A stretch of DNA of 64,000 bases from IMG/VR virus record IMGVR_UViG_3300045051_000531. One strand, given 5' to 3'. Below are positions 9 through 29,882 of this stretch, one piece after another. Below the pieces are notes generated by a model that was given only the letters and a program-made list of their open reading frames with translations, did no database searches and had not been told where the DNA came from. A program made the translations under genes and the position numbers. Positions within the stretch are counted from its first letter, which is position 1, and the number at the start of each line of letters is the position of its first letter. Source of the DNA: a virus.

Positions 9-209
9 GTGTCCGATCTCGTCAAAACCGATTCGGGCTTATACACTATGACCCGGCACAAGTCGGCGGAGGAGGCCGTCGAGTTCATCGAGAAGCGCCT
101 GACGACCTCACCGAGCGGCTCCAAGCTGTACCTGCTGCAGAGCGTGGCGACGTTCACCGTCGAAGCCAAGATCAACCGCGAAGACATCGGGGCCGCAGAT
201 GGCGGCTGA
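9..209 (+). CDS. hypothetical protein (may be truncated at the window edge)
   Basis: ORF track; overlaps the next ORF in operon-like fashion. Confidence 0.5.
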   Translation: MSDLVKTDSGLYTMTRHKSAEEAVEFIEKRLTTSPSGSKLYLLQSVATFTVEAKINREDIGAADGG

Positions 210-420
210 TGTCCACAAACAGCTTGTCCACATCGCTACGACACACGGGATAAACCTCGCGAAAGTAGCCCGCGTGGCCAAGCTGCTCGGGCACACCGAC
301 GAACAGAAAATCGTGGAGTACATCCGACAAAGCGGGTTCGCTGTTGTCCGAAATGTGTCCGATGGTAAGGGCGGTTTTCGGCGTCAGACCGAGGAGGAGT
401 TCGCCGATAAGTTCAAGTAA
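199..420 (+). CDS. small hypothetical protein, possibly HTH-like
   Basis: 73-aa ORF with helical segment INLAKVARVAKLLGHTDEQKIVEYIR; stop lies 26 nt before array 1. Confidence 0.55.
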   Translation: MAADVHKQLVHIATTHGINLAKVARVAKLLGHTDEQKIVEYIRQSGFAVVRNVSDGKGGFRRQTEEEFADKFK

Positions 421-446: not shown

Positions 447-530
447 GGTGTGGCGGGGCGGGGCGGGGCGAGGCGTGGCGGGGCGCGGCATGGCAGGGCA
501 GGGCAAGGCCAGCTCTTTACGAAGCGCTGG
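447..530 (+). ncRNA. GGY-NN pentamer array 1 with 3' hairpin (putative guide RNA, VIPR-like vrRNA)
   Basis: 12 in-phase pentamers at 447-506 (GGTGT, then 11 GGC-NN), then GG and hairpin ccagctctt-TACG-aagcgctgg (509-530, 8 of 9 bp paired). Confidence 0.8.
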
Positions 531-560
531 GGTTGACGAACTCATACGTACCACATCCGC

Positions 561-664
561 GGCATGGCAAGGCTAGGCCTGGCATGGCAGGGCGATGCGG
601 GGCGAGGCGTGGCAGGGCCTGGCATGGCAAGGCTTGGCGAGGGTTTCTTTTTACGAAAAGAAAC
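561..664 (+). ncRNA. GGY-NN pentamer array 2 with 3' hairpin (putative guide RNA, VIPR-like vrRNA)
   Basis: 16 in-phase pentamers at 561-640 (15 GGC-NN, one TGC-GG), then GG and perfect 9-bp hairpin gtttctttt-TACG-aaaagaaac (643-664). Confidence 0.85.
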
Positions 665-701
665 GGTCGGCGGACCAATACGCATAAGAATGAGAGGCTT
701 A

Positions 702-1151
702 ATGAACGGCTATGTGTACGTTCTGACTGACGGAACCGCGTTCAAAATTGGTTACACGAGTGATCGTCCGATTGTACGGCAATGGGGTTGCCAAGTCGGA
801 AACCCGATTCAGTTAACCTTGGTACTAACGATACAGAGCAATGAGCCTGACGTGCTGGAGCGTGAGTTGCATCGACGTTACTGGCATCGAAAGGCGTTAC
901 CACATAAACAAACCGGGGAATGGTTCAACCTGACCCCTGAGGATCTCAAGGAGATCCAGGAGAACTATCATGTCAAAAAACCTTACGATCCAATTTCACC
1001 TGGTGGGCACTCGCCCTTTGATGTTCGACCGGTACCCCGGGGACAACAAGACCAAGCTCCCGGACGACGAGAAGATGTACCTGGACGAGCATCGCCATTT
1101 GACGATCCCAACGATCAACCTGTTTTCGATGCTGGTGGCCGAAAATACTAA
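702..1151 (+). CDS. GIY-YIG superfamily (T5orf172/MUG113-like) nuclease
   Basis: Motifs GYVYVL, FKIGYT, LERELHRRY, GEWF. ATG at 702 follows GAGAGG. The track ORF's extension to 564 runs through the repeat array and is not credible. Confidence 0.75.
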   Translation: MNGYVYVLTDGTAFKIGYTSDRPIVRQWGCQVGNPIQLTLVLTIQSNEPDVLERELHRRYWHRKALPHKQTGEWFNLTPEDLKEIQENYHVKKPYDPISPGGHSPFDVRPVPRGQQDQAPGRREDVPGRASPFDDPNDQPVFDAGGRKY

Positions 1152-1596
1152 ATCAGTTTGCAAACTGTTTCTTGGTAAAAATGGCAGAGAGGTCGCATTA
1201 GGCATCACGACGTTCTGCACGATCGAGCCGTTCGAGATCCCGATATGCGACGAAAAGGGCCCCATCACGTTTGCCGATTTCAACGACAAGGTTCGCGTGG
1301 TGAAGCACGTCGCCAGGTTGAACAAGGGTGTTCCGAACCCGAAGTCACGCCCGCTGATCGAGCTCCCATGGAGTATTGCCGGTACGATCACGTACACCGA
1401 GAACCCCTACTGCCCGTACCAGACTTTGCGCGACTGTTTCATCAAAGGAGGTATCATCGGGCTCGGGACGTTCCGACAGCACTTCGGCAAGTTCAGACTC
1501 GCACGATTCGAAACCGTCGCTGAAAGCGAGAGCGGGTTCGACATCGAGAAACCCGTGGACGACACTGAAGAGGCTCCTGCGGTCAAAAAGACCTGA
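970..1596 (+). CDS. stand-alone Cas7/RAMP-like RNA-binding protein (Vipr-like)
   Basis: RAMP-type N-terminal strand TIQFHLVGTRPLMFDR, then TIPTINLFSML, and C-terminal Gly-rich loop GGIIGLGTFRQHFGKF; AGGAG RBS; next to the pentamer arrays. Confidence 0.75.
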   Translation: MSKNLTIQFHLVGTRPLMFDRYPGDNKTKLPDDEKMYLDEHRHLTIPTINLFSMLVAENTKSVCKLFLGKNGREVALGITTFCTIEPFEIPICDEKGPITFADFNDKVRVVKHVARLNKGVPNPKSRPLIELPWSIAGTITYTENPYCPYQTLRDCFIKGGIIGLGTFRQHFGKFRLARFETVAESESGFDIEKPVDDTEEAPAVKKT

Positions 1597-27594: not shown

Positions 27595-28094
27595 CGGAGC
27601 CTGGTGATCTCGTCGACCTCTTCGGCAAGGAGTCCGACGAGGACAAAGAGGAGCGCTTCGAGGAGTCCACCCTCAAGATGTTGTTGCAGCAGCTCGGCGC
27701 CACTCCGGCACAGGTCCGGAAGTGGCGTTACGAGGAGCCGTTCAATGTCGACTGGTTCAATGACCTCGGGGTCATGAACTCCAGGCTGTATATGAAGTTC
27801 TTCCGGCGGGTCTCCATGGTGGAACTCATCGAGACCCCGTCGAAGAGCGAGCTGGTCCAGTTCTGGATCAACAACGTGCAGCCTGGGGTTGACCCGGGTT
27901 CCGCAGCACCAGCTTTTCTGATCTACGATACCGCCCACTTCAAGGGCCGTAAGGTGTGCACCAACGTGGCGCTCCCTGACCGGGGCCACATCCATGTCGC
28001 CTATCGGACCCTGAAGCTCAACATCACCCCGTTCTCAGCGTTCTTCGCGGAACGCTACGGACCTTGCATCACAGGAGATCTCGATGCCCAATGA
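27591..28094 (+). CDS. hypothetical protein
   Basis: ORF in operon with overlapping ends. Confidence 0.6.
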   Translation: MTEPGDLVDLFGKESDEDKEERFEESTLKMLLQQLGATPAQVRKWRYEEPFNVDWFNDLGVMNSRLYMKFFRRVSMVELIETPSKSELVQFWINNVQPGVDPGSAAPAFLIYDTAHFKGRKVCTNVALPDRGHIHVAYRTLKLNITPFSAFFAERYGPCITGDLDAQ

Positions 28095-29040: not shown

Positions 29041-29882
29041 TGACCGTTCCGGCGATCCCGAAGATCAAGCTGGGGGTCATCGAGGCCCGCGTCAAAGCGG
29101 TCCTCGGCGCCATCATGCAGGGCACGCCGGAGCCCTGGGATTACGCGAGGTGTCAACGGCTCGCGCTTTCGTTGCACTACATCATCGATGAACGCGATGT
29201 CCCAACGGGGCACATCTTCCAGACCTTGGTGCAGTACTGCGGTCGTCCTGTCGACCTGCGGTGGGCCGCTGTGTTGGCCTGGCAACTCGTAGCCCGCAGC
29301 TTTGAACTCAAGCTGGGAGCCCTGCAGCCCTATGAGAACCCGATCCGGGATGAATGGGTTCCCATGGAGATCTACGGGGCCACGCCGGCTCCGTGGCGTG
29401 AGGACAAGCGCGGCCAGTTGCTGACCCTGCATTGTCTCGCTGGAAGCCCGGCTGGGCACCGGCTCCGGAAGAAGTTCCCGGAGGACTGGCTTGCCTTCTT
29501 GGCGTACCGGATCGGGTACAACAGGCGGATCCAGTACGATCACGAACCCAAGGACCTCCTCGGGTTCCGGTTCTGGGGGTACCTCAAGGTCCCCAAGACG
29601 GGCGCCACCGATGAGCTCGACTTCGAGGACTGGCAGGTCGACAAGCAGACCAAGACGCACAATGTTGCCATACTTCGCCTGAGAAAACGCTTCGAGCTAG
29701 ATCTGGAAAAGGTTTCCGAGGACAACATAGAACAGTACTCTTGCCCTTTTGGGTACGACCACTACTGTTCGAGCTGTCATCGGACCGCGGCGAGCTGTAT
29801 CGCTGCTCCGAACCGGGAGCGTGTCGATGTCGGAAGACCACTCGTGGATGGAACGCCCACCGGCGATCCTGAACCCAGTTGA
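29037..29882 (+). CDS. hypothetical protein with C-terminal Cys cluster
   Basis: CPFGYDHYCSSC motif; ATGA overlap. Confidence 0.6.
   Translation: MMTVPAIPKIKLGVIEARVKAVLGAIMQGTPEPWDYARCQRLALSLHYIIDERDVPTGHIFQTLVQYCGRPVDLRWAAVLAWQLVARSFELKLGALQPYENPIRDEWVPMEIYGATPAPWREDKRGQLLTLHCLAGSPAGHRLRKKFPEDWLAFLAYRIGYNRRIQYDHEPKDLLGFRFWGYLKVPKTGATDELDFEDWQVDKQTKTHNVAILRLRKRFELDLEKVSEDNIEQYSCPFGYDHYCSSCHRTAASCIAAPNRERVDVGRPLVDGTPTGDPEPS

What the first reader, a model, noticed from the sequence alone, without database searches (positions are those of the whole stretch)
447..1596. Cas7/RAMP-like gene with two GGY-NN pentamer arrays: a phage repeat-RNA-guided system without CRISPR (VIPR-like)
Seen: two in-phase arrays of fixed GGY plus variable NN (12 and 16 units), each ending in a hairpin. 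They lie upstream of a 208-aa ORF with RAMP hallmarks (TRPLMF strand, TIPT helix cap, C-terminal GLGTFRQHFGKF Gly loop). There is no cas1/cas2, no other cas gene and no CRISPR array in the window. Established: Cas7-type RAMPs polymerise along guide RNA with fixed periodicity. Inference: one protomer binds each 5-nt unit, sequesters GGY and displays NN for target recognition, probably against competing phages or host promoters. This matches my memory of recently reported VIPR (Viral Interference Programmable Repeat) systems, which I cannot verify here. This is the strongest candidate for the novel system in the window.
Basis: partly seen in the sequence, partly recalled or inferred. Interest (0 to 1): 0.95.

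Follow-up and report, generated by a model that had tools for sequence, protein, structure and literature searches.

The report
Phage VIPR guide-RNA silencing locus

Summary
Window 447-511 and 561-640 are 13 and 16 GGY/NN pentamers. They are the only such arrays in the complete 191.5-kb phage genome, and none appeared in 50 simulated windows. Each array ends in a 9-bp hairpin with a UACG loop whose stem covaries in three related contigs.

ORF 970-1596 folds with high confidence (pLDDT 90) as a Cas7-type RAMP (Z 13.5 to Csm3). Its family profile matches the tested Vipr of phage SUSP1 (hhalign 95%, E 2.6e-8). The thumb arginine aligns in both comparisons. The G-loop residue mapping is my reading of that alignment.

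78 of 80 homologous viral loci carry same-strand GGY/NN arrays within 1.2 kb. There is no Cas1, no Pfam RAMP hit and no CRISPR-like repeat in the genome.

VIPR is already in print (three bioRxiv preprints, 2026), and this scan has noted it in over 200 genomes.

Two details are not in the text I could read:
- The accessory gene (702-1151) is a T5orf172/GIY-YIG-fold protein.
- Its last 60 codons overlap vipr out of frame. This overlap is kept in all 42 distinct related loci.

No natural target was found.

The parts
447..511 (+). vrRNA1 repeat tract: 13 GGY/NN units. NN = GT GG GG GG GA GT GG GC AT AG AG AA CA. The last two units are conserved in relatives and lead into the tail.
509..530 (+). 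vrRNA1 3' tail hairpin: 9-bp stem with one T.C mismatch, UACG tetraloop at 518-521.
   Evidence: (alignment A2; covariation in 6 of 9 pairs)
527..560 (+). Conserved element between the two vrRNAs (GGGGTTGACGAAC..ACGTACCA..CGC). It includes a possible 3-4-bp GRCG-loop hairpin. It is found before or after every array in the three closest relatives and occurs once in this genome. It may be a promoter or a processing site; its role is unknown.
561..640 (+). vrRNA2 repeat tract: 16 GGY/NN units, one degenerate (TGC at 596-598). NN = AT AA TA CT AT AG GA GG GA GT AG CT AT AA TT GA.
643..676 (+). vrRNA2 3' tail: 9-bp hairpin (643-651/656-664, UACG loop) followed by a small hairpin GGTC-GGCG-GACC (665-676).
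702..1151 (+). vap-like accessory gene, 149 aa. Residues 1-90 form a T5orf172/MUG113 (GIY-YIG-fold) domain. Residues 91-149 are a predicted disordered tail, encoded out of frame inside the first 182 nt of vipr.
970..1596 (+). vipr: a 208-aa stand-alone Cas7-like RAMP. The G-loop is GLGTFRQHFGKF (residues 164-175) and the thumb is a beta-hairpin at 108-130 with R127. AGGAG at 958-962 serves as ribosome-binding site.

Best explanation
This is a VIPR (Viral Interference Programmable Repeat) locus of a complete 191.5-kb soil phage.

Two guide RNAs of roughly 90 and 105 nt are made from the + strand. Each is a run of GGY/NN pentamers capped by a UACG-loop hairpin. By homology with the SUSP1 system, one Vipr protomer (ORF 970-1596) binds each pentamer. 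The G-loop, thumb and RRM face hold the three GGY bases, and the two NN bases are left free. The resulting helical filament reads double-stranded DNA by pairing NN to NN with one target base skipped per unit (a period of 3, matching codons), and silences the bound gene. The likely target is a gene of a competing mobile element, not yet identified.

The T5orf172-type gene 702-1151 is the accessory (vap) gene of this clade. Its role (DNA binding or cutting) is unknown.

Shown here: the arrays, the tail hairpin, the RAMP fold, homology to SUSP1 Vipr, the array-gene association, the lack of CRISPR, and the lack of self-targets. Inferred: transcription, filament assembly, the skip rule and silencing.
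For: - Arrays: 13 and 16 GGY/NN units. They are the only ones in the genome, and none occurred in 50 simulations.
- Tail hairpin: covariation in 8 tails from 4 loci.
- Fold: AF2 model with pLDDT 90.1 and pTM 0.81. In Foldseek, 51 PDB hits had E<=0.001, and all those listed are type III or VII CRISPR backbone subunits. VIA-align gives Z 13.5, rmsd 3.6 over 168 residues to L. lactis Csm3.
- Homology: hhalign of the 38-sequence family profile against SUSP1 agp039, the Vipr gene located by its flanking arrays, gives probability 95.2% and E 2.6e-8. The thumb R138 aligns to R127, which is invariant in the family.
- G-loop: window residues 162-175 align to SUSP1 172-185. Counting along that alignment, the GGY-contacting residues D177/W178/R179 correspond to T167/F168/R169. 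This mapping is my own reading.
- Association: 78 of 80 IMG/VR homologue loci have arrays on the gene's strand within 1.2 kb. The three closest relatives share the whole layout.
- Guides: NN letters are hypervariable between relatives while GGY and the tails are kept.
- No self-target reaches 66% NN identity under skips of 0-2 nt, as the paper reports for other systems.
- Context: a virus record with terminal repeats, 100% complete, with no Cas1, no Pfam RAMP hit and no CRISPR-like repeats.
Against: - No natural target was found. There was no exact match to full-length or 10-12-unit xNN sub-patterns of either guide in IMG/VR, GTDB species genomes or JGI metagenomes. The only 9-unit hit extends at chance level, 22/32. 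These scans tolerate no mismatch, so this is weak negative evidence.
- Homology to SUSP1 Vipr covers only the C-terminal 103 profile columns, and pairwise BLASTP is marginal (E 4e-4).
- By my reading of the alignment, the G1-contacting Asp (D177) is Thr here.
- No sigma-70 promoter or intrinsic terminator flanks the arrays, so transcription is unverified.
- The tail is a plain hairpin, not the pseudoknot of the SUSP1 clade.
- The first half of vrRNA1 is low-complexity (GG GG GG), which makes it a poor guide.
Confidence: 0.87

Rival explanations
1. It is a VIPR system, but it cuts the bound DNA instead of only silencing it. In this reading the T5orf172/GIY-YIG-fold Vap is an active nuclease, recruited to the Vipr-vrRNA filament.
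For: - The Vap domain matches Pfam MUG113 and T5orf172 (E 2.4e-10 and 1.7e-7).
- The model's best structural matches are GIY-YIG proteins (UPF0213, Slx1, HIGLE).
- The residues invariant across 33 Vaps (Y6, K15, G17, R26, E53, H57, E73, W74) include positions that, from my knowledge of GIY-YIG enzymes, resemble the catalytic Tyr, Arg and Glu.
- The paper says some VIPR types carry nucleases.
Against: - The structural matches are weak (E 0.1-1).
- The second GIY-YIG tyrosine position is not conserved (KIG-Y/F/C/R/H).
- From my own knowledge, T5orf172 was first described as a DNA-binding domain.
- The paper states that nuclease-bearing types are the host-borne types III and V, whereas this locus is on a phage.
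- No catalytic test was possible.
Confidence: 0.25
2. The guides regulate the phage's own genes or host genes (a timing switch or host takeover), not a rival mobile element.
For: No rival element with a match was found. The locus sits next to the terminase gene in a phage that, according to an earlier unchecked note, encodes its own RNA polymerase. The host is unknown, so host genes could not be tested.
Against: No site in the phage's own 191.5 kb reaches 66% NN identity under skips of 0-2 nt. In the tested systems the targets are satellites and prophages. NN letters differ completely between close relatives. That fits an arms race better than conserved self-regulation.
Confidence: 0.1
3. The pentamer tracts are ordinary G-rich simple repeats, or pieces of coding sequence, that merely lie near a Cas7-like gene left over from a CRISPR system.
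For: Gene callers translate such tracts as N-terminal extensions of neighbouring ORFs. Array 1 is G-rich and of low complexity.
Against: - 78/80 homologue loci have same-strand arrays with fixed GGY and variable NN.
- The tail hairpins covary.
- There are no CRISPR repeats or cas genes in the genome.
- The family profile matches the tested SUSP1 Vipr.
- No arrays arise in simulated sequence.
Confidence: 0.02

Closest known systems
VIPR type II of Escherichia phage SUSP1 (Vipr agp039, vap1 agp038, four vrRNAs; bioRxiv 10.64898/2026.04.26.720920, .720927 and 10.64898/2026.10.15.759431)
   Same: Both have a stand-alone Vipr of about 200 aa with an RRM, thumb and G-loop. Both have GGY/NN vrRNAs of 11-16 units with a structured 3' tail on the gene's strand. 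Both are a minimal two-gene locus on a lytic-type phage with no CRISPR and no self-targeting. The thumb Arg aligns, and by my reading so do the G-loop Arg and aromatic residue.
   Different: - Only distant sequence homology (hhalign 95%, C-terminal half only).
- The accessory gene lies upstream of vipr, not downstream. It is a T5orf172/GIY-YIG-fold protein, and it overlaps vipr by 182 nt.
- The tail is a UACG hairpin plus a small second hairpin, not a pseudoknot.
- Both vrRNAs lie upstream of the genes, and there is no downstream array.
- By my reading of the alignment, the Asp that contacts G1 is replaced by Thr.
Csm3/Cmr4/type VII Cas7 backbone subunits of class 1 CRISPR effectors (for example PDB 9ash_F, 6xn5_H, 6s6b_I, 8yhd)
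   Same: The overall fold is the same: Z 12-13.5 over 160-170 residues, with an RRM core, a thumb beta-hairpin and a glycine-rich loop. Both are expected to polymerise along a guide RNA at a fixed period.
   Different: Sequence identity is 8-14%, and there is no Pfam RAMP hit. There is no CRISPR array, no Cas10, Cas5, Cas6 or Cas11, and no Cas1. The guide period is 5 nt, not 6, and the guide is a repeat tract, not a spacer.
VIPR with staggered arrays in Cheoctovirus mycobacteriophages (for example BobaPhett gp52)
   Same: It has GGY/NN tracts directly upstream of a protein with a GVGDWRP G-loop. The window's array 2 matches these tracts at 79.5% identity simply because both are GGC-NN repeats.
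   Different: The arrays there abut each other with 1-nt register shifts and have no hairpin tails. The Vipr is longer (248 aa as annotated), and there is no T5orf172 gene.

Membership tests
VIPR system | Vipr protein with a RAMP fold: RRM core, thumb and glycine-rich loop, with no second RRM | tested here: met
   The AF2 model has pLDDT 90.1. Foldseek top hits are all Cas7-type subunits. VIA-align gives Z 13.5 over 168 residues to Csm3. The protein is a single domain of 208 aa.
VIPR system | Sequence homology to an experimentally characterised Vipr | tested here: met
   hhalign of family profile A1 against SUSP1 agp039 gives probability 95.2%, E 2.6e-8, 103 columns. Pairwise BLASTP gives E 4e-4 over the G-loop region. 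Only the C-terminal half aligns.
VIPR system | Residues that hold GGY in SUSP1 (thumb R138; G-loop D177, W178, R179) | tested here: inconclusive
   R138 aligns to R127, which is invariant in the family. By my count along the alignment, R179 maps to R169 and W178 to F168 (aromatic kept), but D177 maps to T167. H17 could not be aligned.
VIPR system | vrRNA: at least 4 (typically 9-16) tandem YNNGG units with fixed GGY and variable NN, on the vipr strand | tested here: met
   There are 13 and 16 units. NN letters are hypervariable between relatives. 78/80 homologue loci have same-strand arrays.
VIPR system | Conserved structured 3' tail after the repeat tract | tested here: met
   A 9-bp hairpin with a YACG loop; 6 pairs have compensatory changes and 95.8% of cells are paired. 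It is a hairpin, not the SUSP1-clade pseudoknot.
VIPR system | Minimal locus (vipr plus one accessory gene), no CRISPR array or other cas genes, mostly viral | tested here: met
   vap is at 702-1151. There is no Cas1, no Pfam RAMP hit and no CRISPR-like repeats. The record is a virus record, 100% complete.
VIPR system | Guides have natural targets at >=80% NN identity under the 1-nt skip rule and none in their own genome | tested here: inconclusive
   There is no self-target. No target turned up in exact-match scans of three collections. A mismatch-tolerant search of those collections was not possible with these tools.
VIPR system | vrRNAs are expressed, co-purify with Vipr, and direct repression of matching DNA | not testable with these tools
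   This needs small-RNA sequencing, a pull-down and a reporter assay.
Class 1 CRISPR-Cas effector (Cas7 of type III or VII) | CRISPR array with repeats and spacers, and partner subunits (Cas10/Cas5/Cas11 or Cas14) | tested here: not met
   There is no CRISPR-like repeat family in the 191.5 kb and no Cas1 or Pfam RAMP hit. Neighbouring genes are a T5orf172 gene and, from its size, position and my reading of its sequence, the terminase.

The most novel reading that the evidence does not exclude
In the large VIPR clade whose accessory gene is a T5orf172/GIY-YIG-fold protein, vap and vipr are dual-coded. The last 45-90 codons of vap are read in the -1 frame of the most conserved, N-terminal part of vipr. 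This gives Vap a conserved, disordered Arg/Pro-rich tail and ties the two proteins' expression together. Vap may also be an active nuclease, which would make a phage-borne VIPR a DNA cutter and not a pure silencer. Neither point appears in the main text of the three VIPR preprints that I could read. Their figures and tables were not available.
Probability: 0.3. Interest if true: 0.5.

Novelty: new member of a known kind. Interest (0 to 1): 0.3.

Why it matters
The locus adds a well-anchored VIPR example on a complete, large (191.5 kb), GC-rich soil phage, far from the enterobacterial and Pseudomonas systems that have been tested. The family profile finds 1,024 cluster representatives at E<=0.001, which shows how large this Vipr family is.

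The useful new material is at the level of detail:
- a simple covarying UACG-hairpin tail, which gives clean vrRNA boundaries for cloning;
- a T5orf172-type accessory gene;
- a conserved out-of-frame vap/vipr overlap that constrains any attempt to engineer or delete either gene.

It does not change the concept of VIPR, and the biological target is still unknown.

Tried and rejected
**Target search**
- Full-length xNN patterns of vrRNA2 and vrRNA1 gave 0 exact matches in IMG/VR.
- 10-unit windows of vrRNA2 (units 1-10 and 7-16) and of vrRNA1 (units 1-10 and 3-12) gave 0 in IMG/VR.
- 11-unit windows of vrRNA2 gave 0 in GTDB species genomes.
- 12- and 10-unit windows gave 0 in JGI metagenomes.
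- A 9-unit core hit four near-identical contigs, but the rest of the guide matches only 4 of 14 letters, which is chance level.
- A mismatch-tolerant scan of the own genome and of all fetched loci found nothing above the shuffled-guide null.
- Guides of 170 related arrays do not hit this phage above the null.

**Other checks that led nowhere**
- Decoding the guides as codon motifs gave no motif I could tie to a family. A partial resemblance of vrRNA2 to the Y-V-L-T-D-G-E-V start of relatives' vap genes is, by my hand count, only about 67% NN identity. I rejected it.
- There is no Vap-Vipr fusion. The longest family members are ORFs read through arrays.
- A frameshift at the A6 run just after the vipr start was considered and rejected on reading the sequence. 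A -1 slip from the vap frame does not land in the vipr frame.
- There are no sigma-70 promoters or terminators and no Rfam family.
- Pfam, NCBIfam and PADLOC give nothing for Vipr. PDB sequence search gives nothing.
- The two small ORFs upstream (3-209 and 199-420) have no counterpart in related loci, so they are not counted as parts.
- The VIPR type (I-VII) could not be assigned, because the papers' tables and figures are not held.

Full report
**The sequence.** Between a small ORF ending at 420 and an ATG at 702 lie two tracts of five-base units with fixed GGY and variable NN.

- Phasing shows 13 units at 447-511 and 16 units at 561-640, one of them degenerate (TGC).
- A GGY-phase scanner finds exactly these two tracts in the window and in the whole 191,518-base genome, both on the strand of the downstream genes. 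It finds none in 50 Markov simulations.
- TRF agrees on period 5, with sub-periods 10 and 15 in the second tract.

**Tails and flanks.** Each tract runs into a hairpin with a TACG loop.

- The three closest relatives of the protein (Logan contigs L081-L083, 63-68% identical Vipr) have the same modules.
- Over eight tails the 9-bp stem is 95.8% paired. Six pairs change on both sides, and no shuffle of 500 reached the covariation score.
- A second conserved element (GGGGTYGRCGRAC..ACGYA..) follows each hairpin and precedes the next array. It occurs once in this genome.
- No sigma-70 promoter or intrinsic terminator is present, and no Rfam family matches.

**The protein.** ORF 970-1596 has no Pfam, NCBIfam, PADLOC or PDB-sequence hit.

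- It has 80 close homologues in the 5.8-billion-protein set.
- As a profile, it finds 1,024 cluster representatives at E<=0.001 among 1.84 billion.
- The alignment shows invariant F19-D20-R21-Y22, G24-D25, P122/P124, R127-P128 and W134, and a nearly invariant G-x-G-T-x-R loop.
- AlphaFold2 with this alignment gives pLDDT 90.1.
- Foldseek returns 51 PDB hits at E<=0.001, and all those listed are Cas7-type backbone subunits of type III and VII CRISPR complexes.
- VIA-align gives Z 13.5, rmsd 3.6 over 168 residues to Csm3.

**Link to published VIPR.** The preprints define VIPR as follows:

- a stand-alone RAMP (Vipr);
- vrRNAs of 9-16 YNNGG units with a structured 3' tail;
- usually one accessory gene (vap);
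- no CRISPR array and a viral context;
- DNA recognition in which NN pairs with NN and one target base is skipped.

I located the SUSP1 locus by its arrays: record positions 27621-27966 and 29172-29226, minus strand, flanking agp039 and agp038. The window's family profile aligns to agp039 with probability 95.2% and E 2.6e-8. SUSP1 R138 (thumb) falls on the invariant R127. Counting along the alignment, the G-loop residues D177/W178/R179 fall on T167/F168/R169; this mapping is my own reading.

**Association.** Of 80 IMG/VR loci encoding homologues (37-57% identity), 78 have GGY/NN arrays on the gene's strand within 1.2 kb. The two exceptions have the gene at or near a contig end. Several database 'proteins' of the family carry N-terminal extensions that are simply translated arrays. 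NN letters differ completely among the closest relatives, while GGY, the last units and the tails are kept.

**Absence of CRISPR.** The genome is a virus record with terminal repeats, estimated 100% complete. It has no Cas1 and no Pfam RAMP match and no CRISPR-like repeat family.

**The accessory gene.** ORF 702-1151 (149 aa) matches MUG113 and T5orf172 over residues 1-90.

- Its model is confident there and disordered from residue 91.
- The best, though weak, structural matches are GIY-YIG proteins.
- Its last 182 nt lie inside vipr, in the frame one base behind vipr's.
- All 49 related loci with such a gene (42 distinct) show the same frame relation, with vap open 137-281 nt into vipr.
- When vipr codons are replaced by synonymous ones, the median open length is 5-86 nt. 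Per-locus p is 0 to 0.15, and Fisher's chi-square is 301.5 on 84 df. The loci are related, so this overstates independence.
- As a control, the same frame downstream of the vap stop has 161 stops against 188 expected. The other alternative frame inside the overlap has 112 against 121. The vap frame inside the overlap has 0 against 128 expected.
- The overlap is therefore under selection. Whether the tail is made, and what it does, is not shown.
- The preprints' text does not mention T5orf172, GIY-YIG or such an overlap. Their figures and tables were not available.

**Targets.** Under the published rule I found no self-target. I also found no exact match for full or partial guides in IMG/VR, GTDB genomes or JGI metagenomes. 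One 9-unit hit is chance. The host is unknown.

**Verdict.** This is a VIPR locus, a kind published in 2026 and already noted by this scan in more than 200 genomes. It is a new member, not a new system. The T5orf172-type accessory gene with its conserved out-of-frame overlap, and the hairpin tail, are the points worth a specialist's second look.

Noticed in passing
L013:3677-3747, L014:3651-3720, L015:3626-3690, L019:3643-3710: In some homologous loci the vrRNA tracts are separated by tRNA-like minihelices: an acceptor-like stem stacked on a T-arm with a GGTTCGA-type 7-nt loop. ARAGORN calls no tRNA there. This suggests vrRNA release by tRNA-processing enzymes (my inference). It would be a processing mode beside the hammerhead-spaced arrays mentioned in the preprint.
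   Followed up: partly
L087:2321-3307 (Mycobacterium phage BobaPhett, NC_051636.1 37847-38833): Window array 2 matches intergenic DNA of ten Cheoctovirus mycobacteriophage records at 79.5% identity. There it is a staggered GGY/NN array (1-nt register shifts) directly upstream of gp52, annotated as hypothetical, whose C-terminus carries a GVGDWRP G-loop like SUSP1 Vipr. These well-studied phages therefore appear to carry unannotated VIPR loci.
   Followed up: partly
window 970-1596; proteins P0001, P0060, P0078, P0084, P0101, P0169: Gene callers mishandle these loci. The database record of this window's own protein starts at Met18 (191 aa), which cuts off the first beta-strand. Several homologues have false N-terminal extensions that are translated pentamer arrays.
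   Followed up: yes
window 561-640: Array 2 has an internal 15-nt (three-unit) sub-period with partly repeated NN blocks (AT AA TA / CT AT AG near the start, CT AT AA TT near the end). It is predicted to fold on itself far better than shuffles do (z -4.1). This may reflect growth by block duplication. Its meaning for guide function is unclear.
   Followed up: no
L081:1-40, L082:1-60, L083:1-40: All three contigs of the closest relatives (8, 17 and 83 kb) end inside or within about 60 nt upstream of the vrRNA array region. Either assemblies break at the repeats or the locus sits at a genome end in those phages.
   Followed up: no
window 199-420: A small 73-aa ORF just upstream of the arrays has only faint helix-turn-helix-like hits (HTH_6, E 0.05) and no counterpart in related VIPR loci. 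It is probably unrelated to the system.
   Followed up: partly
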